Shown one piece after another: positions 27,197-42,372 of a stretch of DNA of 64,000 nucleotides. Numbering within the stretch: position 1 is the first letter of the stretch; the number at the start of each line of letters is the position of its first letter. The DNA is taken from positions 128,001 to 192,000 of the IMG/VR virus record IMGVR_UViG_3300031813_000003; one strand, given 5' to 3'. The translations under genes and the position numbers were made by a program. The stretch comes from a virus. Taxonomy: Duplodnaviria; Caudoviricetes. The notes beneath the pieces are model-generated. The model had not been told where the DNA came from. It searched no databases and worked only from the letters and a program-made list of their open reading frames with translations.

Positions 27197-28282
27197 ATGA
27201 ATGTAAATGTAAACGAAGTAGAAGCAAATGAAGTGACTGATAGAGATTTACTAGCTGTAGTCTATAAAGTAGAAAGGCTAGAAGCAATCCCTAACAAAGA
27301 TCGGATCGAACTTGTTCACCTGAAGGACTGTGGATATACTTGTATCTGTGAAAAAGGTCACACCGTAGGAGATTTGGTTGTATTCATCAAGTATGATACA
27401 ATTCTCCCTAAAATCGAAATGTTTAACTGGATGGCAGAATCTAAATACCGTGTTAAACCAAAATCCTTTACAGAGAGGGATGAAGAAGATAACGTAGTAA
27501 AGAAGATTTACAGTCAAGGTATTGTTATCCCCTTTCGTGTAGTTTCTGAATATATTGAATGTGATGATATCAATATTCGTTTTGAAGGTGCTGACCTAAC
27601 TTCATATCTAGGAATCGTCAAATACATTGCGCCTGTATCAAATGGTGGAATGGGTAATATGCAGTCAAAGGGTGATTTCCCTACCCACAAAGTATCAAAG
27701 ACAGATGAAATGAATGTCTGCTCTAAGATGAAAGCATACGCTGAAATTCAAGGGCAAGAAGTTTACATCACTCAGAAGATCGAAGGTTCATCTGTTACTT
27801 TCTTCTGTGAAGATGATGAACTAGTTGTTTGTAGCAGAAACAACATCCTTATTGAAACTGAGGGTAACAAGTTTTGGCAAGGAGTTAAGAAGTACGATAC
27901 TAAAACTTTGTTCACTGATCTTCCTTGGTTGATTTGTCAGGCTGAACTTTATGGCCCAGGAATTCAGAAAAACAAACTAGGAACTGAATCTGTTGATATT
28001 ATGATCTTCAACATGATTGATGGAAGAACTAGGCAGAAGCTTGGTTACTACCGGATGATTGATATCGCAGTTAAATATAAGCTTCCTCTTGTTCCACTAA
28101 TTTGTTGTATCCAAAGTTTTGATTGGACTTTTGAACAACTTCAAGAATTTACTGATAAACAGAAGTACCCAAATGGTGAACTAGCTGAAGGTGTTGTTAT
28201 TCGTCCAGTAGAACCATTCATCAGTAAGGTTCTCCATGAAGAATGGTCCCTCAAATGTATTTCAAGAGAATACAAGCTTTGA
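27197..28282 (+). CDS. ATP-dependent RNA ligase, Rnl2/DRB0094 family with N-terminal OB-like domain
   Basis: IPNKDRIE, SQG, KTDE, TQKIEGSS motif I, CSRN, ELYGPGIQKN, EGVVIR. Confidence 0.9.
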   Translation: MNVNVNEVEANEVTDRDLLAVVYKVERLEAIPNKDRIELVHLKDCGYTCICEKGHTVGDLVVFIKYDTILPKIEMFNWMAESKYRVKPKSFTERDEEDNVVKKIYSQGIVIPFRVVSEYIECDDINIRFEGADLTSYLGIVKYIAPVSNGGMGNMQSKGDFPTHKVSKTDEMNVCSKMKAYAEIQGQEVYITQKIEGSSVTFFCEDDELVVCSRNNILIETEGNKFWQGVKKYDTKTLFTDLPWLICQAELYGPGIQKNKLGTESVDIMIFNMIDGRTRQKLGYYRMIDIAVKYKLPLVPLICCIQSFDWTFEQLQEFTDKQKYPNGELAEGVVIRPVEPFISKVLHEEWSLKCISREYKL

Positions 28283-29076
28283 TAGAATACACTAATGGAC
28301 AATTTGGCACTATTGCTCCTGTTAAAGATATCTTCGATTTCCTTTATGAAAAGAGTGACTTCGAAGGTATCAAGGCAGTGCATATAGGGGAAGTCGAAGA
28401 ACTACAACGAATCAGACAGAATAAAGTATCAACTGAAGCTTTATGTGATCGTCTTGATGAACTTGAAAGAGAATTAGCTACACTTAAACCCAAAGGGATA
28501 GTGAAGAGGAAAGAAGACGAAGAACCTATTGCCACTCGTAGGACATATCCTGTGAGTCCTGAACGTCCTTCTAGCCCTGTTAATACCACATCTGTATCAA
28601 TGGATCGTCCTAACTATCATCACACTCAGAATGGCACTCCTGTTCGTTCCTATGGTAATGCAACAGCACCAGCACCAGCACCTGTTCATAACACAACTAT
28701 CATCAACAACGGTGGAAACAGTGGAAACAACAATGGTGGAGATTTTGTAACTGGAATGATGGCAGGGGCATTGCTCGACAACGCACTTTCCAGTAACCAT
28801 CACCATGATCGTGAAGTTGTGGTTGAGCGTGAGTACGTACCTGTTCGTGAAGTAGAAGTGCGTGAAACTGAAACATCCAGATCGACTTGGGATACACCTA
28901 AAGAAGAATCCAAATCCAGTTCATGGGATGCACCTAAAGAATCATCACATTCCAGTTCATGGGATGATCATTCTAGTAGTAATAGCAGTTCATGGGATAA
29001 TAGTTCTTCATCAGATTCCAGTAGTTCTTGGGGTGATAGCTCATCTTCAGACTCTAGCGGCGGGGGTGACTGGTAA
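28279..29076 (+). CDS. Hypothetical protein with S/W/D low-complexity tail
   Basis: Gly-zipper GMMAGALL and repeated SSSWD units; start uncertain. Confidence 0.65.
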   Translation: MIEYTNGQFGTIAPVKDIFDFLYEKSDFEGIKAVHIGEVEELQRIRQNKVSTEALCDRLDELERELATLKPKGIVKRKEDEEPIATRRTYPVSPERPSSPVNTTSVSMDRPNYHHTQNGTPVRSYGNATAPAPAPVHNTTIINNGGNSGNNNGGDFVTGMMAGALLDNALSSNHHHDREVVVEREYVPVREVEVRETETSRSTWDTPKEESKSSSWDAPKESSHSSSWDDHSSSNSSSWDNSSSSDSSSSWGDSSSSDSSGGGDW

Positions 29077-29171
29077 TGACATTCACAGTACTTTATTTGA
29101 TAGGATCAGGAATTGTGATTGGGTTAATTATAGGGCATTGGTTGTGGAAACCTAAAAAGGAGACTAAATAA

Positions 29172-29513
29172 ATGAACGATGTAACTAAAGTAGTTGTATG
29201 TATTGTTGGGTTTGTTGTGTTCATCATCGGAATCAGTTGGATTTCAATGGGCAATGAATTCATGTTATACAAATATTTTGCGCCTAAGCAGGAAGCAGTA
29301 CGGACCAAGGTTTATCGTGAGTCCCAAGCTCAACAGGATGGTATGATAAACGAACTTCAGAAAATGCAGATTGAATATGCATCTGCTAGTCCTGAAGGTA
29401 AATTAATCATTGCAGATGCTGTAGTTTCACGGTCTGCTCAATTCACTGGACAACTTACTCCTAGTCTTGATGCTTTCGTTTCCAAATGTAAGGCGCAGAA
29501 AGGAATCAACTAA
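29172..29513 (+). CDS. Single-pass membrane protein
   Basis: N-terminal hydrophobic helix; AGGAG RBS. Confidence 0.7.
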   Translation: MNDVTKVVVCIVGFVVFIIGISWISMGNEFMLYKYFAPKQEAVRTKVYRESQAQQDGMINELQKMQIEYASASPEGKLIIADAVVSRSAQFTGQLTPSLDAFVSKCKAQKGIN

Positions 29514-29514
29514 A

Positions 29515-29676
29515 GTGATCAACAAGAAAGGGTTTGCCCTAATAGAACTTATCATTGTGGTTGCTATCGTAGGAATTCTTATTGCCATTGCTGTACCACA
29601 ATACATAAATTACCATAATCATGGATATATTCAGAATGATATCAACACTCAAAGGAATCCTGATTACCGACCATAA
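29515..29676 (+). CDS. Short type IV prepilin, Geobacter PilA-N-like (47 aa mature)
   Basis: GTG start after AGGAA; NKKG/FALIELIIVVAIVGILIAIAVPQY class III signal with E5 and P22. Confidence 0.88.
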   Translation: MINKKGFALIELIIVVAIVGILIAIAVPQYINYHNHGYIQNDINTQRNPDYRP

Positions 29677-29869
29677 GGGATTTGGTGTAGTAGAACTTAT
29701 AATTGGGATTGTTATAGTAGGACTAATACTAGCTATTATTCCTGCTGTAACATACCTTCACATAGTGAATTATATCACACCTAAAGCTTTAGAATCAAAT
29801 CAACATCGTTATGGATATATTCATAGGGATTTTGACTCACATCGTAACCCTTACTATAAAGAATATTAA
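29636..29869 (+). CDS. Second short prepilin-like paralog
   Basis: HKG/FGVVELIIGIVIVGLILAIIP; C-terminal GYI..D....RNP.Y shared with the first pilin; start uncertain. Confidence 0.75.
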   Translation: MISTLKGILITDHKGFGVVELIIGIVIVGLILAIIPAVTYLHIVNYITPKALESNQHRYGYIHRDFDSHRNPYYKEY

Positions 29870-29882
29870 AGGAAATAAAAAA

Positions 29883-30419
29883 ATGAAAAATGTTGTTATG
29901 TTTATGTGTCTGCTTGTTAGTTGTTCACTGTTTGTAGGGTGTAAAGAAAAACCTATCCATCAAACTGCGGATCAGCAAATTAACCGTCAACAGGAAGGAA
30001 TGGCTCAACAGGCAAACAAAGAAGCTGGTATGCCTGGGATTTCTAACTTCACCGAAAAGAAAACCATGCGTAAAATCCTTGAAAAACGTGATTCTGCGAA
30101 CCTTGTAACTTATGGCTACATCTGGTCACCTATGCTTGCTAAATTTCGGTTTGTCGGTATTGGTTATGGGTATCCACTTCCTTATGCAACTCAGTACACC
30201 AATCCTACGAGGATTGCTAGGCATGACGAAGTTCCATATGTTGGTAATGTAACTCTTCCCCAAGCTGACCCTACAGGTCTTTGGAGCCCTGCATCAGCTG
30301 ATGCAACTTGGTGGTTGATGATGGATGAAGAAACCAAAAGTGTTGACGCTGAATATTTTGAAGAAAGAATCAATGTTGTTCTTCATAAACTCCCTAAGCG
30401 TATGGTTATCCAAGATTAA
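29883..30419 (+). CDS. Lipoprotein
   Basis: Signal peptide ending in lipobox FVGC. Confidence 0.7.
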   Translation: MKNVVMFMCLLVSCSLFVGCKEKPIHQTADQQINRQQEGMAQQANKEAGMPGISNFTEKKTMRKILEKRDSANLVTYGYIWSPMLAKFRFVGIGYGYPLPYATQYTNPTRIARHDEVPYVGNVTLPQADPTGLWSPASADATWWLMMDEETKSVDAEYFEERINVVLHKLPKRMVIQD

Positions 30420-32347: not shown

Positions 32348-32953
32348 ATGAAAATTTGTGGGATATACAGTATAACAAACTTAACTAATAACAAGCTTTA
32401 TATTGGACTAAGTACAAACATTGAGCAAAGATTTTCTTTCCATAAGAAAAGACTACTCTCTGGTAAACACAAGAATAAACATTTTCAATCATCATTTGAT
32501 AAGAATGGAATAGACAATTTCAAATTTGAAGTAATAGAAATTTGTGAAGACTCTATGTTGTGTGATAGAGAAAAATATTGGATAACTCATTATAAATCAT
32601 TTGATAGAGAATTTGGTTACAATAAAACTTATGGTGGTGAGTTTGGTAGAGTATCTGATGAAGTAAATGAACGTAGAAAAATAAAACTAAGACAATTAAC
32701 AATACCACAAGAACAACGAGATAGAATTAGTAAAACACTCAGCGGAAGGGTTAGACCTAGAGATGAAATTGAACGAGCAGCAAAATCTTGTAGAAAATGT
32801 ACAGATGCTCAGGAACAAGAAGTAGTGAATCTATTTATAGATAGAAAATCAACAACTGAAATTTCTGAATTACTATCACTAAAGAAAACTTTAGTGATAA
32901 GTATATTAAGAAGGAATGGAGTAACTAAAAATGCAAGAAAATCAAACAATTAG
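32348..32953 (+). CDS. GIY-YIG homing endonuclease
   Basis: GIYSITN..NNKLYIG, E..WI, GYN; late promoter with RBS-sequestering hairpin at about 32310-32347. Confidence 0.9.
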   Translation: MKICGIYSITNLTNNKLYIGLSTNIEQRFSFHKKRLLSGKHKNKHFQSSFDKNGIDNFKFEVIEICEDSMLCDREKYWITHYKSFDREFGYNKTYGGEFGRVSDEVNERRKIKLRQLTIPQEQRDRISKTLSGRVRPRDEIERAAKSCRKCTDAQEQEVVNLFIDRKSTTEISELLSLKKTLVISILRRNGVTKNARKSNN

Positions 32954-39627: not shown

Positions 39628-39701
39628 GTGTCGTTAGTTCAATGGTAGAGCAACAGGCTGTAACCCTGTTAATGGTGGTTCGAGTCCATCACGGCGCACC
39701 A
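39628..39701 (+). tRNA. tRNA-Tyr(GTA), short variable arm
   Basis: Loop CTGTAAC; CCA end. Confidence 0.9.
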
Positions 39702-39712
39702 AAATTTAATAT

Positions 39713-39792
39713 GCGGGTAGCACTTAGGCATGAGGTATGTCAGTAGCCTTCCAAGCTATCGTTAAGGTGTTCGATTCACCCTATCCGCTCCA
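39713..39792 (+). tRNA. tRNA-Gly(TCC)
   Basis: Loop CTTCCAA; CCA end. Confidence 0.85.
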
Positions 39793-39862
39793 TAAATTTA
39801 ACAGCAAATTTATTTTGCTAAATACTATCATAAGAAGTATAAATTTGAAAAGAGGAACCGTT

Positions 39863-40015
39863 ATGAAACAATTTGAGTCAAGATCACAGATAGCAGCACA
39901 ATGGCATACAATGCCCATGTCCCTCTGCGCCATGACTCCGGTTCTATCCTTAGATGCAGTAGCACAAAAAAATAATAATGATATTCGCTTTAATAGCGAG
40001 GTAACCCTCACTTAA
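39863..40015 (+). CDS. 50-aa leader-peptide candidate
   Basis: GAGG RBS, upstream CTAAATA, downstream terminator. Confidence 0.6.
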   Translation: MKQFESRSQIAAQWHTMPMSLCAMTPVLSLDAVAQKNNNDIRFNSEVTLT

Positions 40016-40042
40016 AGTATGTCAACAGAAAAGTATTAAGAG

Positions 40043-40080
40043 AATCCTCTTGACTTAACTGTTAAGAGGATTTTTAGTTT
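40043..40080 (+). terminator. Intrinsic terminator just before the main tRNA array
   Basis: AATCCTCTTGAC-TTAACT-GTTAAGAGGATT followed by a T-tract. Confidence 0.8.
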
Positions 40081-40083
40081 TAT

Positions 40084-40158
40084 GCACCGTGAGTCAGCAG
40101 GAGTGGACATTAGCCTTTCAAGCTAAGTAGATGGGATCGATACCCATACGGTGTACCA
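40084..40158 (+). tRNA. tRNA-Glu(TTC)
   Basis: Loop CTTTCAA; CCA end. Confidence 0.85.
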
Positions 40159-40167
40159 AAAGTTAAT

Positions 40168-40245
40168 AGTGAGAGGGGTAAATCGGGTGTGAACTTCTAG
40201 TGTCGTTAGGTCACACTAATTACACAGATTCCGTAAATCCTCCAT
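40168..40245 (+). ncRNA. Possible divergent copy of the AUACUUC small-RNA motif
   Basis: Outer stem GAGG/CCTC, inner GTGT/ACAC, AACTTC then a hairpin. Confidence 0.45.
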
Positions 40246-40254
40246 TAAAATTAT

Positions 40255-40327
40255 ACTCAGATCGTCTAAAGTAGGATGCTCCATGTTGAGGGAGTGACGA
40301 AGTGGTAACGTACTTCTCTGAGTGCCA
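40255..40327 (+). tRNA. Atypical tRNA-Asn(GTT)-like
   Basis: 7-bp acceptor, G73, CCA; irregular anticodon loop and T-loop. Confidence 0.55.
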
Positions 40328-40341
40328 AAATTAAATATTAT

Positions 40342-40416
40342 CAATGTGTAGGCTAAAGGCTAGTCGCTACGTTTGGGGCGTAGATCATGCAGGTTCGATC
40401 CCTGTCACACTGACCA
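40342..40416 (+). tRNA. tRNA-Pro(TGG)
   Basis: Loop TTTGGGG; CCA end. Confidence 0.88.
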
Positions 40417-40421
40417 AATTT

Positions 40422-40495
40422 GGGGCATTAGTTTAACGGGAAAACGTTGGCCTTGCAAGTCGAAGACAGGAGTTCGATTCTCCTATGCTCCACCA
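40422..40495 (+). tRNA. tRNA-Ala(TGC)
   Basis: G3:U70; loop CTTGCAA. Confidence 0.92.
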
Positions 40496-40508
40496 ATTTT
40501 AGTAACAT

Positions 40509-40584
40509 CAGCTAATGTGATAATCTGGTAGTCGCCCTGATCTGGAATCAGGAGGTTTCGGTTCAAATCCGAATTAGCTGACCA
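40509..40584 (+). tRNA. tRNA-Pro(TGG), C33 variant
   Basis: Loop TCTGGAA; C1:G72. Confidence 0.8.
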
Positions 40585-40669
40585 ATTTTGAAGTCTACTC
40601 ACAAGGGTATAACTGAGTGGCGTAAGTCTGACAGAGACACAAAGTGTGCCAGAACTTTGATTAACAAAT

Positions 40670-40744
40670 GGTCTATTGTTGTAGTGGTAGCAATACTAGC
40701 TTGTCAAGCTTGAGGCGAGGGTTCGATTCCCTCATAGATCGCCA
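40670..40744 (+). tRNA. tRNA-Asp(GTC)
   Basis: Loop TTGTCAA; G73. Confidence 0.88.
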
Positions 40745-40909
40745 AACAAAGGAATGAAATGTCTTCATATTACACATGGGCAAAAAGACCTAACAGCACT
40801 ACATTTGAATCAGTTGCTATGTTAGATGATTACTTTGGCCCATACAGATACGGTGTGATGTTTAATGATGGTAAAGTTTATCCAGTAAATGAATGTGAAG
40901 TAAAAACAC

Positions 40910-41060
40910 TATGTGGTTAGATGAACCAATATCATTAGATATACACCATAAAGATGGTAACAATAAAAAACAATGATATTGATAATACTGAATTACTTTG
41001 TCCTAATTGTCATAGAATGACTGATAATTTTGGTTTTAAAGGTAAAACACATAAAAAATT
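40910..41060 (+). pseudogene. HNH endonuclease remnant
   Basis: LDIHHKDGN...ELLCPNCH across a frameshift; no N-terminus. Confidence 0.6.
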
Positions 41061-41134
41061 GGCCGATAAACATAAAATTAATGTGCTAGGTTCTGAGCCT
41101 AGAAAAGAGGGCGAGTTACCTTCATCGGTTGCCA
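41061..41134 (+). tRNA. tRNA-Gln(CTG), non-canonical T-loop
   Basis: Loop TTCTGAG; CCA end. Confidence 0.7.
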
Positions 41135-41138
41135 ATAT

Positions 41139-41212
41139 AGGGGATTAGCATAAAAGTAATGTTACAGCCTTTGAAGCTGAAGAAAGAGGGGCAGTACCTC
41201 TATCCTTTGCCA
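41139..41212 (+). tRNA. tRNA-Gln(TTG), non-canonical T-loop
   Basis: Loop CTTTGAA; CCA end. Confidence 0.75.
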
Positions 41213-41221
41213 ATTAAATGT

Positions 41222-41307
41222 TCCCTAGTGGTGAAATGGCAGCCACAGCACACTGTTAATGTGCCGCAGAAATGCAATTGTTCGTTCAAGTCGGACCTAG
41301 GGAGCCA
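41222..41307 (+). tRNA. tRNA-Asn(GTT), long variable arm
   Basis: Loop CTGTTAA; G73. Confidence 0.85.
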
Positions 41308-41324
41308 AAAATTAAATAGAACAT

Positions 41325-41417
41325 TCCCTCGTACTCTAACTGGCAAGAGGAACGGCTGTTAACCGTTTGTAATCCACCTTGAGTGGTATCCCTGTTCGAC
41401 TCAGGGCGAGGGAGCCA
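41325..41417 (+). tRNA. tRNA-Asn(GTT), long variable arm
   Basis: Loop CTGTTAA; G73. Confidence 0.85.
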
Positions 41418-41418
41418 A

Positions 41419-41494
41419 TTTTGTGTAGTGTAGCGGTAGCACACTTGCCGCATTAAGGTGAGAAGGTCAGGTTCGAATCCTGACATAAGAGTTA
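41419..41494 (+). tRNA. Degenerate tRNA (ATT loop, no CCA)
   Basis: Good D and T arms; loop GCATTAA. Confidence 0.5.
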
Positions 41495-41502
41495 TAAATT
41501 AT

Positions 41503-41580
41503 GGATCGGTGATGTCAACGGATTAACATACTCGCCTTTTAAGCGATGATATCAGGGTTCGAATCCCTGTCGATCCACCA
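41503..41580 (+). tRNA. tRNA-Lys(TTT)
   Basis: Loop CTTTTAA. Confidence 0.88.
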
Positions 41581-41590
41581 AATAGTATAT

Positions 41591-41665
41591 GGGGTTAAAA
41601 CATTAATAGTGATGTACTTGGTTCTTACCCAAGAGAAGAGGGAGCATTACCTTCTAGCCCTACCA
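41591..41665 (+). tRNA. tRNA-Lys(CTT), non-canonical T-loop
   Basis: Loop TTCTTAC. Confidence 0.75.
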
Positions 41666-41677
41666 AACAATTTAAAT

Positions 41678-41763
41678 GGACGCTTCACTCAACGGTAGAG
41701 TACCTGACTTTTAATCAGGAGAGGTTTACCTCATTATGGGTTCGATTCCCCTAGCGTTCACCA
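41678..41763 (+). tRNA. tRNA-Lys(TTT), long variable arm
   Basis: Loop CTTTTAA. Confidence 0.85.
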
Positions 41764-41769
41764 AATTAT

Positions 41770-41843
41770 CAGTTCAAAGTTGCAAAGCGTGATCCACTCA
41801 TTGGGAGTGGAGGTCTTAGGGTAGCGTCTGAGTGAACTGACCA
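41770..41843 (+). tRNA. Atypical tRNA-Pro-like
   Basis: C1:G72, A73, CCA; offset ATTGGGA loop. Confidence 0.5.
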
Positions 41844-41852
41844 AAGTTTTAT

Positions 41853-41925
41853 GGAGTGATAGTATAAGCTGTGCAGCGTCCATGAAGGGACGTTAGAGAG
41901 GGGTAGCGTCCTTTATGCTCCACCA
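41853..41925 (+). tRNA. Atypical tRNA-Phe(GAA)-like
   Basis: Acceptor stem and CCA; irregular loop ATGAAG. Confidence 0.5.
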
Positions 41926-41930
41926 AACAT

Positions 41931-42001
41931 GGCTGATCATCAAGGATGAGCGAATCCTCATAAGGTTTGTTAGGTAGGAGCGTTACCTACATCAGCTACC
42001 A
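41931..42001 (+). tRNA. tRNA-Met/Ile2(CAT)
   Basis: Loop CTCATAA; short D arm. Confidence 0.75.
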
Positions 42002-42372
42002 AAATAAAATGTCAATTAAAATTGACAAGTGACTATAAAGTGTAGTAAGGTAGACAAATCAAAAGGAGAAACAACTATGCATTCTTCTACAGTTGACAAT
42101 CTACATAAGAAAAGTGTTGTCTCTGACATTGGTATCGGAGGGTGGAAGTGTAGATGTTGTGCATTCCCTAAAGAACATATAAAAGAGTATAAACGTTTTG
42201 CAAAACACAGAGCTAAAAGAGAGAACAAAAAGTTTGATAGGATTGCAGAAGGTGATTAATTGTACTTCTGGAGAAAGAATCAGAGCAATTGTATTCATGT
42301 CTCAAATGAATATGAAGGATAACGAAACAAATTTCAATTTGATTATAAATCACTTTAGAGGAATTAACGAAA

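What the first reader, a model, noticed from the sequence alone, without database searches (positions are those of the whole stretch)
29515..29869. Tandem phage-encoded short type IV pilins resembling Geobacter PilA-N
Seen: MINKKG/FALIELIIVVAIVGILIAIAVPQYINYHNHGY gives a 47-aa mature pilin with E5, P22 and aromatics at 1, 24, 27 and 32. A paralog shares the tail GYI..D....RNP.Y. They sit between a membrane protein and a lipoprotein, and no pilus machinery is in the window. Established: G. sulfurreducens PilA-N is a 61-aa truncated pilin with F1/F24/Y27/Y32, linked to cytochrome nanowire secretion, and pili are common phage receptors. Inference: these are host-processed pilin mimics that jam or alter pili (superinfection exclusion) or modulate extracellular electron transfer.
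Basis: partly seen in the sequence, partly recalled or inferred. Interest (0 to 1): 0.8.

Follow-up and report, generated by a model that had tools for sequence, protein, structure and literature searches.

The report
Tandem headless pilin genes in phage
A 216-kb uncultivated T4-like phage carries two adjacent small genes that encode only the signal and long first helix of a bacterial type IV pilin, probably to tamper with the host's pili or secretion machine; such phage "pilin stubs" are common, have been noted in print, and are still untested, and nothing links these two to Geobacter.

Summary
pil1 (29515-29676, GTG start, 53 aa) and pil2 (ends 29869) both have a prepilin signal with G-1, F1, E5, G14 and P22/P21. 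Both pass TIGR02532. pil1 also passes Pfam N_methyl; pil2 is borderline. The mature products are 47 and 62 aa, with no globular head. The two genes are diverged paralogues (dN/dS about 0.3).

The Geobacter and electron-transfer reading is not supported. Mature pil1 scores the same against P. aeruginosa PilA as against PilA-N. The 1/24/27/32 aromatic pattern occurs in 54% of the best bacterial matches. No PilA-C-like partner gene was found.

The pair is an insert. In 51 of 69 related phages the flanking membrane-protein and lipoprotein genes abut. The phage has no prepilin peptidase or pilus ATPase of its own.

Only one full-length homologue exists among 1.8 billion representative proteins. The kind, however, is common. 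Aeromonas phage Aeh1 carries an annotated stub, several PHROG families match, 36% of sampled IMG/VR pilin-like ORFs are 70 aa or shorter, and Sztanko et al. 2026 describe truncated phage PilA.

This scan has already reported at least eight phage mini-prepilins on other genomes.

Best reading: these are PilD-processed stubs that interfere with type IV pili or type II secretion, probably for superinfection exclusion. This is a new member of a known, untested kind.

The parts
29515..29676 (+). pil1: 53-aa prepilin-type protein. Leader MINKKG is 29515-29532; the mature 47-aa peptide is 29533-29673; the stop is 29674-29676.
   Evidence: ORF and sequence. Pfam N_methyl 30.5 bits against a cut-off of 21.2. 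TIGR02532 31.8 bits against 16.3. The AlphaFold2 model is a single helix over residues 5-47.
29500..29505 (+). Shine-Dalgarno-like AAGGAA, upstream of the pil1 GTG. pil1 starts 2 nt after the stop of the upstream membrane-protein gene.
   Evidence: 42 of 59 long ORFs in the window have an SD-like 4-mer within 20 nt upstream, against a 20% background.
29663..29869 (+). pil2: a paralogous prepilin-type protein. The mature 62-aa peptide is 29681-29866. The start is uncertain. ATT 29663 aligns with pil1's GTG and has a Shine-Dalgarno sequence 6 nt upstream. The alternatives are ATG 29636 (77 aa, the source's own gene call, P0151) and ATG 29621 (82 aa). The mature product is the same in every case.
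   Evidence: Pfam N_methyl 20.5 bits by hmmscan and 21.7 in the six-frame search. TIGR02532 17.2 bits against 16.3. dN/dS against pil1 is about 0.30.
29651..29657 (+). Shine-Dalgarno-like AAAGGAA inside the pil1 tail codons, 6 nt before ATT 29663.
29623..29667 (+). pil1 tail motif G31-Y-I-Q-N-D-I-N-T-Q-R41-N42-P-D-Y. G31/Y32 and R41/N42 match the consensus of the same positions in the first helix (alpha1-C part) of ordinary pilins.
29813..29857 (+). pil2 tail motif G-Y-I-H-R-D-F-D-S-H-R-N-P-Y-Y.
   Evidence: The same motif occurs in the only outside homologue, P0066.
29172..29513 (+). Upstream flank: 113-aa protein with an N-terminal membrane helix (called mem113 here). It is the conserved partner of the downstream lipoprotein and is not part of the pilin pair.
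29883..30419 (+). Downstream flank: 178-aa lipoprotein with lipobox LFVGC (phrog_24725, unknown function).

Best explanation
pil1 and pil2 are real phage genes for headless type IV pilins. Each has a class III (prepilin) signal and the long first helix of a type IVa pilin, and nothing else.

Shown here:
- The diagnostic residues are present.
- There is no globular domain.
- Both copies are under purifying selection.
- The pair was inserted into a conserved phage envelope module.
- The phage encodes no peptidase or assembly machinery of its own.

Inferred:
- After Sec/SRP insertion into the inner membrane, the host prepilin peptidase (PilD) cuts after G-1 and methylates F1.
- The stubs then use the conserved F1/E5/G14/P22 helix to compete with host pilins. 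The competition could be at PilD, at the assembly platform, or within the growing fibre of a type IV pilus or type II secretion pseudopilus.
- The result would be fewer pili or altered pili.
- The likely benefit is superinfection exclusion, or keeping progeny from adsorbing to already infected cells. Expression is probably early, because the region has no T4-type late promoter or terminator and lies among early-type genes.
For: - Family thresholds are passed and the motif residues can be read directly.
- pil1 residues 23-33 and 41-42 match the consensus of 139 bacterial pilins position by position, then P43 ends the helix. AlphaFold2 gives one helix.
- G-1, F1, E5 and G14 are kept in pil1, pil2 and P0066, although dS is about 1.3 between the paralogues (dN/dS about 0.30). 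A charged E5 inside a membrane helix is costly unless it is used. In pilins it is needed for assembly (established knowledge).
- No Peptidase_A24, and no T2SSE match over the cut-off, in the genome that CheckV rates complete.
- Precedents. Prophage P-FimU is built into the pilus and blocks phage adsorption, and truncated PilA of about 60 aa is noted in six virulent Pseudomonas phages (PMC12952977). PfsE is a phage protein that blocks type IV pili by binding PilC (PMC8764522).
- The same kind of gene lies among early genes (nrdD-nrdB) of the T4-like Aeromonas phage Aeh1.
- The region 26.5-32.5 kb has no terminator-like site, and there is no + strand TATAAATA between 15957 and 33588.
Against: - No experiment exists for any truncated phage pilin in the papers I could search.
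- The host is unknown, so it is not shown to have PilD, type IV pili or type II secretion.
- pil2 lacks a canonical start codon at the expected place and is borderline on Pfam.
- The pair sits in a slot that in related phages holds unrelated small membrane peptides. Membrane location, rather than pilus targeting, may be what matters.
- Only one outside homologue exists, so conservation statistics are thin.
Confidence: 0.5

Rival explanations
1. The pilin-type signal is only a device to place a short peptide in the inner membrane. The peptides work with the flanking membrane-protein/lipoprotein module (for example in lysis, a spanin-like function, or envelope remodelling) and do not target pili.
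For: - The pair lies exactly between two genes that abut in 51 of 69 related phages, 22 of them with a 4-nt overlap.
- In other relatives the same slot holds 38-aa membrane peptides, extra lipoprotein copies and other small ORFs.
- The neighbouring genes (a 31-aa membrane peptide and a Ser/Trp/Asp-rich protein) also look envelope-directed.
Against: - G-1, F1, E5, G14 and P22 are all kept, which a plain membrane anchor does not need.
- Most relatives manage without any insert, so the module does not need the pilins.
- The function of the module is itself unknown. It has no Pfam or NCBIfam match and no clear fold match.
Confidence: 0.2
2. The peptides are decoy substrates that saturate or block the prepilin peptidase. 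This would shut down every PilD-dependent system (type IV pili, type II secretion, competence pili) without the peptides entering a fibre.
For: - The cleavage motif is intact in both copies, and two tandem copies would raise the dose.
- The N-terminus scores about equally against PilA, PpdD and GspG models.
Against: - A decoy needs only the leader and the first few residues. Here G14, P22 and the alpha1-C consensus positions are kept as well.
- The peptides would be turned over as ordinary substrates unless they bind unusually tightly.
Confidence: 0.12
3. Geobacter-type conductive or secretion pilin mimic that modulates extracellular electron transfer.
For: - pil1 has aromatic residues at 1, 24, 27 and 32, in register with PilA-N, and is of similar length.
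- The top PDB matches are geopilin chains.
Against: - Those chains rank first only because they include the leader. Mature PilA-N scores 31.8 bits against 31.1-31.4 for P. aeruginosa PilA.
- The aromatic register is found in 54% of the 148 best matches, most of them pilins of normal length.
- pil2 lacks the register.
- No PilA-C-like partner was found by sequence.
- There is no similarity past residue 33.
- About 35% G+C is far below the roughly 60% G+C that I recall for Geobacter.
Confidence: 0.02
4. One or both genes are decaying passengers with no function. pil2 is the more likely pseudogene, because it has lost its start codon.
For: - The pil1 GTG aligns with ATT in pil2.
- pil2 is borderline on Pfam.
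- The family is very rare: one outside homologue.
- The pair is absent from 80 related loci.
Against: - dN/dS is about 0.30 with synonymous sites near saturation.
- The reading frame is intact, and the motif residues and the tail are conserved.
- A Shine-Dalgarno sequence lies 6 nt before the ATT, and two in-frame ATGs lie upstream.
Confidence: 0.12

Closest known systems
Truncated phage PilA-like proteins (about the N-terminal 60 residues) in six virulent Pseudomonas phages, noted by Sztanko et al. 2026 (PMC12952977, section 17)
   Same: Encoded by virulent phages. They have the prepilin signal and first helix only, with no globular head. The proposed roles are the same: entering the pilus without a phage-binding surface, or blocking assembly.
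   Different: They are known only from a database survey and are untested. I could not get their sequences (no supplement is held), so homology to pil1/pil2 beyond the generic N-terminus is unknown. The pair here is a tandem duplicate with its own conserved tail.
Aeh1p044 of Aeromonas phage Aeh1 and its relatives in other T4-like Aeromonas phages (L094, L096, L086, L097)
   Same: Jumbo phages; Aeh1 is classed in Straboviridae and the others are inferred to be its relatives. The gene lies among early-type genes. The leader is MKG and the N-terminus is FTLIEL. The GenBank note reads 'similar to N-terminal sequence of bacterial secretion protein pilin'.
   Different: The mature peptides are only 24-26 aa (membrane helix alone) and the gene is single copy. 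pil1 and pil2 extend through the whole first helix and carry the GYI...RNP tail.
Prophage P-FimU minor pilins (JBD68 and F10-like phages; PMC12952977)
   Same: A phage-encoded pilin that uses the host machinery and protects against pilus-dependent phages. This is the only tested case of a phage pilin giving exclusion.
   Different: P-FimU is a full-length minor pilin with a globular domain. It replaces FimU at the pilus tip and leaves pilus function intact. pil1 and pil2 have no head domain.
PfsE of Pf filamentous phage (PMC8764522)
   Same: A phage-encoded protein that suppresses type IV pili and excludes superinfecting phages.
   Different: PfsE acts by binding PilC. I do not recall it having a prepilin signal, and I did not compare the sequences. 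It is an analogy of function only.
Geobacter sulfurreducens PilA-N (GSU1496; PDB 2m7g, 6vk9)
   Same: A naturally truncated type IVa pilin of about 61 aa. It shares F1, E5, P22 and aromatic residues at 24/27/32 with pil1, and is 61% identical over residues 1-33 (counted from the alignment).
   Different: PilA-N works as a heterodimer with the adjacent PilA-C gene product (PMC5174107). No such partner was found here. The similarity is the generic type IVa N-terminus, and the C-terminal halves are unrelated.
PHROG families phrog_27437, 11263, 13280, 10597 (unknown function) and phrog_3433 ('pilin')
   Same: pil1 matches them at E values from 1e-12 to 1e-6 through the N-terminal helix. Three of the profiles are only 59-72 positions long.
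   Different: The matches cover only residues 1-37. None includes the tail motif.

Membership tests
Prepilin-type N-terminal cleavage/methylation domain proteins (class III signal; Pfam PF07963, TIGR02532) | Profile score over the curated cut-off | tested here: met
   pil1 scores 30.5 bits against 21.2 on Pfam and 31.8 against 16.3 on TIGR02532. pil2 scores 17.2 against 16.3 on TIGR02532. On Pfam, pil2 scores 20.5 by hmmscan (just under) and 21.7 in the six-frame search.
Prepilin-type N-terminal cleavage/methylation domain proteins (class III signal; Pfam PF07963, TIGR02532) | Short basic leader ending in Gly(-1), then Phe(+1), Glu(+5) and about 20 hydrophobic residues | tested here: met
   Read directly: MINKKG|FALIELIIVVAIVGILIAIAV and ...DHKG|FGVVELIIGIVIVGLILAII.
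Prepilin-type N-terminal cleavage/methylation domain proteins (class III signal; Pfam PF07963, TIGR02532) | Cleavage and N-methylation by a prepilin peptidase (PilD / Peptidase_A24) | not testable with these tools
   This needs expression in a PilD+ host and mass spectrometry. The phage has no Peptidase_A24 of its own.
Full-length type IVa major pilins (PilA/PilE) | First helix with G14 and P22 and the alpha1-C consensus | tested here: met
   pil1 has G14 and P22. It matches the position-wise consensus of 139 pilins at residues 23-27, 29, 31-32 and 41-42. pil2 has G14 and P21.
Full-length type IVa major pilins (PilA/PilE) | C-terminal globular alpha-beta head with a beta-sheet and a disulfide-bonded D-region | tested here: not met
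   The mature peptides are 47 and 62 aa and contain no Cys. The AlphaFold2 model of pil1 is a single helix. Scores against full-length models fall far below their cut-offs, for example 38.7 bits against 400.
Geobacter-type truncated pilin (PilA-N / GSU1496-like) | Short mature length (about 60 aa) with aromatic residues at 1, 24, 27 and 32 | tested here: inconclusive
   pil1 meets it (F1, Y24, Y27, Y32). pil2 does not (T24, H27, I32). The pattern is not diagnostic: 80 of the 148 best matches have it.
Geobacter-type truncated pilin (PilA-N / GSU1496-like) | Adjacent GSU1497-like (PilA-C) partner gene supplying the head domain (PMC5174107) | tested here: inconclusive
   The genes downstream are pil2 and a lipoprotein. 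The lipoprotein profile finds no geopilin chain in the PDB by sequence at E up to 10. No geopilin chain appears in the fold searches, but a missing fold match does not exclude one. The lipoprotein is a conserved partner of the upstream membrane protein in 69 relatives that lack pilins, which argues against a PilA-C role.
Geobacter-type truncated pilin (PilA-N / GSU1496-like) | Sequence affinity to PilA-N beyond what any type IVa pilin shows | tested here: not met
   Mature PilA-N scores 31.8 bits, against 31.1-31.4 for P. aeruginosa PilA. The alignment stops at residue 33.
Phage-encoded truncated pilins ('pilin stubs') | Encoded in a phage genome, with an N_methyl domain, no head domain, and no phage-encoded pilus machinery | tested here: met
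   The record is a 216-kb virus with T4-type topoisomerase genes. There is no peptidase or ATPase over the cut-off. Comparable stubs are found in Aeh1 and in IMG/VR.
Phage-encoded truncated pilins ('pilin stubs') | Effect on pili or on phage adsorption | not testable with these tools
   I found no experiment for any member.

The most novel reading that the evidence does not exclude
Phage pilin stubs may be a general, modular class of envelope effectors. In this reading the invariant prepilin helix delivers the peptide to the host's type IV filament machinery, and a short family-specific tail (here H-GYI-x2-D-x4-RNP-x-Y, kept in pil1, pil2 and P0066) binds a particular periplasmic target. The tandem pair would then target two variants, or two machines (type IV pili and type II secretion), of the host.
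Probability: 0.2. Interest if true: 0.6.

Novelty: new member of a known kind. Interest (0 to 1): 0.32.

Why it matters
Pili are common phage receptors and important bacterial tools. A lytic phage that disables or disguises them with a peptide of about 50 residues would be a very economical form of superinfection exclusion, and a possible lead for anti-pilus peptides.

The value of this case is modest. It adds a rare sequence family, a tandem pair and a clear insertion history to a class that is widespread in large phages. It removes a misleading link to Geobacter nanowires. The open question is what any phage pilin stub actually does. That can be tested in the laboratory, and it is not special to this locus.

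Tried and rejected
- **Stop-codon read-through.** The window has suppressor tRNAs, so I checked for a read-through joining pil1 to pil2. pil2 is in the +1 frame, not the same frame, and I saw no slippery site. Rejected.
- **Word-indexed homologue search with pil1.** No candidates.
- **tblastn of pil1 against GenBank phages.** No match, probably because of the low-complexity filter; Aeh1-type stubs exist in that collection.
- **Tail-motif DNA pattern.**
  - IMG/VR, stricter form: 0 matches.
  - JGI metagenomes: 24 matches, none a pilin.
  - 185,579 species genomes: 37 matches, none a pilin.
  - So no host-like source of the tail was found.
The six contigs that carry P0066 (longest 147 kb) could not be examined.
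- **Flanking lipoprotein.** The AlphaFold2 model from 45 sequences has pLDDT 78. Foldseek against the PDB gives nothing at E up to 0.001. The VIA-align wide search gives a best Z of 4.5. BFVD gives one unnamed viral protein. No functional clue came out of this.
- **Other libraries.** PADLOC gave nothing for the pilins or the lipoprotein (one weak Csx23 match, E 0.026, for the upstream membrane protein), and NCBIfam gave nothing for either flank. The protein-atlas search returned only generic short N_methyl clusters.
- **Tree with Desulfuromonadales pilins.** Not built. Only about 33 generic residues can be aligned, too few for a meaningful tree.
- **Host identification.** Not achieved.

Full report
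**What is there**

The window is bases 128001-192000 of a 215,974-bp IMG/VR virus record that CheckV rates 100% complete. It is a jumbo phage related to T4:
- It has both T4-type topoisomerase II subunits, NAD-salvage genes, an RNA ligase, PIN-PhoH and a 22-gene tRNA array.
- It has about 35% G+C.
- Nearly all genes lie on the + strand.
- It is only distantly related to cultured phages: the topoisomerase is about 35% identical.

- pil1 runs from GTG 29515 to TAA 29674-29676. It starts 2 nt after the stop of the upstream gene and has an AAGGAA Shine-Dalgarno sequence before the GTG. The precursor MINKKG|FALIELIIVVAIVGILIAIAVPQYINYHNHGYIQNDINTQRNPDYRP gives a 47-aa mature peptide with F1, E5, G14, P22, Y24, Y27 and Y32.
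- pil2 is in the +1 frame and ends at 29869. Its mature peptide is 62 aa (29681-29866, FGVVELIIGIVIVGLILAIIPAV...) and has F1, E5, G14 and P21.

**More than chance**

- pil1 scores 30.5 bits on Pfam N_methyl (cut-off 21.2) and 31.8 on TIGR02532 (cut-off 16.3).
- pil2 scores 20.5 bits by hmmscan, 21.7 in the six-frame genome search, and 17.2 on TIGR02532.
- These are the only two such matches in the genome.
- The two genes can be aligned as DNA and as protein (E 3e-7).
- A Nei-Gojobori count over 51 codons gives dS about 1.27, dN about 0.37 and dN/dS about 0.30. Both copies have therefore stayed under purifying selection since an old duplication.

**The start of pil2**

- In the DNA alignment the GTG of pil1 aligns with ATT 29663.
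- AAAGGAA lies 6 nt before that ATT.
- The in-frame ATGs at 29621 and 29636 have no Shine-Dalgarno sequence.
- The phage does use Shine-Dalgarno sequences: 42 of 59 long ORFs have one, against a 20% background.
- The source's gene caller chose ATG 29636, giving 77 aa (P0151).
- Whichever start is used, cleavage after ...HKG would give the same mature peptide.

**What kind of pilin**

- Against NCBIfam only the N-terminal domain model passes. Every full-length model (PilA, PpdD, GspG, ComGC) is matched over the first 30-40 residues and falls far below its cut-off.
- AlphaFold2 gives one helix over residues 5-47 of the pil1 precursor. Confidence is low beyond about residue 30.
- I compared pil1 position by position with 139 bacterial pilins from the exhaustive search. 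Residues 23-27, 29, 31-32 (G-Y) and 41-42 (R-N) match the consensus of the same positions, and then P43 ends the helix.
- pil1 is therefore the whole first helix of a type IVa pilin and nothing more. Part of the 'tail motif' is a diverged alpha1-C segment.
- pil2 and the outside homologue carry the same GYI..D....RNP.Y block after an extra 14-16 residues.

**The Geobacter claim**

- The best PDB matches are geopilin chains (43 and 40 bits), but those chains include the leader NKKGF.
- The mature PilA-N chain 2m7g scores 31.8 bits, level with P. aeruginosa PilA at 31.1-31.4. The alignments stop at residue 33.
- Aromatic residues at 1/24/27/32 occur in 80 of the 148 best matches, and at 1/24/27 in 126 of them. 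Most of these are pilins of normal length.
- pil2 scores only 15-16 bits against geopilins and lacks the aromatic register.
- Geobacter-type pilins are defined by an adjacent PilA-C gene (PMC5174107). The downstream lipoprotein shows no sequence match to any PDB chain.
- I conclude that the resemblance is the generic type IVa N-terminus plus short length.

**Context**

- The upstream 113-aa protein (N-terminal membrane helix) and the downstream 178-aa lipoprotein (phrog_24725) form a conserved pair.
- Of 80 related IMG/VR loci, 73 have both genes.
- In 69 of them the membrane protein comes first. In 51 of those the genes abut, 22 with a 4-nt overlap.
- The other 18 carry inserts of 91-1310 nt: 38-aa membrane peptides, extra lipoprotein copies and other small ORFs.
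- None of the 80 loci has a pilin in the slot. One locus (L017) has an unrelated pilin-like gene 2 kb upstream.
- The pilin pair is therefore an accessory insert into a permissive slot of an envelope-directed module.
- The function of that module stayed unknown after a 45-sequence AlphaFold2 model and three fold searches.
- The stretch 26.5-32.5 kb has no terminator-like site and no T4-type late promoter box on the + strand. It lies among early-type genes. I infer early or middle expression.
- The genome has no Peptidase_A24 and no T2SSE match over the cut-off. Any processing or assembly must therefore use host proteins.

**Relatives**

- An exhaustive phmmer search of 1.84 billion representative proteins gave 8,640 matches at E up to 0.001. 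All run through the N-terminal helix.
- Only one, P0066 (66 aa, MKG|FTLIEL...NNHHGYIQKDFESKRNPYYKP), shares the tail.
- A profile of the three sequences found nothing further. Scores drop from 131 to 51 bits after P0066.
- P0066 occurs on six Logan/ENA contigs, the longest 147 kb.
- A degenerate DNA pattern for the tail found no pilin in IMG/VR, in JGI metagenomes or in 185,579 species genomes.
- The family is thus very rare, and no bacterial source of the tail was found.

**The kind is common and already noted**

- pil1 matches several PHROG families, three of which have profiles only 59-72 positions long.
- T4-like Aeromonas phages encode peptides of 24-26 mature residues with the leader MKG.
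- In a capped sample of IMG/VR contigs that encode KGFTLIEL exactly, 28 of 77 complete ORFs have mature lengths of 70 aa or less. A few of these are chance matches.
- Sztanko et al. 2026 show that prophage FimU-like pilins enter the pilus and block adsorption. They also note a family of truncated PilA (about 60 residues) in six virulent Pseudomonas phages, and propose either incorporation without a binding surface or a block of assembly (PMC12952977).
- I found no paper that tests a truncated phage pilin.
- Notes from this scan report at least eight phage mini-prepilins on other genomes, several with their own conserved tails. I treat these as leads only; they agree with my own survey.

**Mechanism**

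Shown:
- The products are prepilin-type membrane peptides without a head domain.
- They are conserved.
- They depend on the host for any processing or assembly.

Inferred:
- PilD cleavage and methylation.
- Competition with host pilins at PilD, at the platform or in the fibre, through the F1/E5/G14/P22 helix.
- A resulting loss or change of pili, or of the type II secretion pseudopilus.
- A benefit of superinfection exclusion in infected cells.

The main rival is that the peptides serve the flanking envelope module and use the pilin signal only for membrane insertion. Retention of every pilin-specific residue argues against this, but it is not excluded.

**Verdict**

The pilus-interference reading is reasonable and already in print for this kind of protein. 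The Geobacter and electron-transfer reading is not supported. This is a new, rare member of a known and untested class.

Noticed in passing
window 29172-29513 and 29883-30419; loci L003-L082: The 113-aa membrane protein and the 178-aa lipoprotein form a conserved, often overlapping gene pair in at least 69 related phages. The junction is a hot spot for small inserted genes. The lipoprotein's most conserved motif (GYG.PLPYATQYTNP ... LPQADP.GL.SPASAD.TW) lies in a low-confidence loop of the model, and no known fold or function was found. It could be a spanin-like pair or an exclusion module.
   Followed up: partly
window 28243-29076 and 29076-29171: A 277-aa protein has a Ser/Trp/Asp-rich tail with SSSWD-like repeats and a weak DUF2076 match. 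It is followed by a 31-aa membrane peptide. In L037 a homologue of the 277-aa protein sits inside the slot between the membrane-protein and lipoprotein genes. The stretch 28.2-30.4 kb looks like an island of envelope-directed small proteins.
   Followed up: no
window 29621-29623 and 29811-29813: In both pilin units the Y-G-Y-I codons (tATGGATATATTCa) contain an ATG in the +1 frame that reads in frame into the next gene (pil2, and then the lipoprotein). This may be a by-product of the duplication or an alternative start.
   Followed up: partly
L094/L162 (Aeromonas phage Aeh1, NC_005260 39873-39959); L086, L096, L097: T4-like Aeromonas phages encode 27-28-aa precursors (MKG|FTLIELIVVVAILGILF...). 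These are only the pilin membrane helix. The gene lies between nrdD and nrdB.
   Followed up: partly
L017:926-1270: A related phage has a 101-aa mature pilin-like protein with Leu instead of Phe at +1 (MRNRKG|LALIEV...). It lies 2 kb upstream of its lipoprotein gene and is unrelated to pil1 and pil2 beyond the N-terminus.
   Followed up: no
window 39628-50217: The tRNA array has 22 genes, including two suppressor-type tRNAs (anticodons tta and cta). Other agents of this scan have followed these up.
   Followed up: no
window 32348-32953: A 201-aa ORF in a stretch with many homing-endonuclease-like features. About 135 nt of it is 71% identical in DNA to an annotated homing endonuclease gene of the crAss-like phage cr1_1.
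   Followed up: no
proteins P0004, P0014, P0018, P0001: Several top database matches contain the pilin N-terminus twice, with exactly repeated segments. They look like assembly or gene-calling artefacts rather than true tandem-domain pilins.
   Followed up: no
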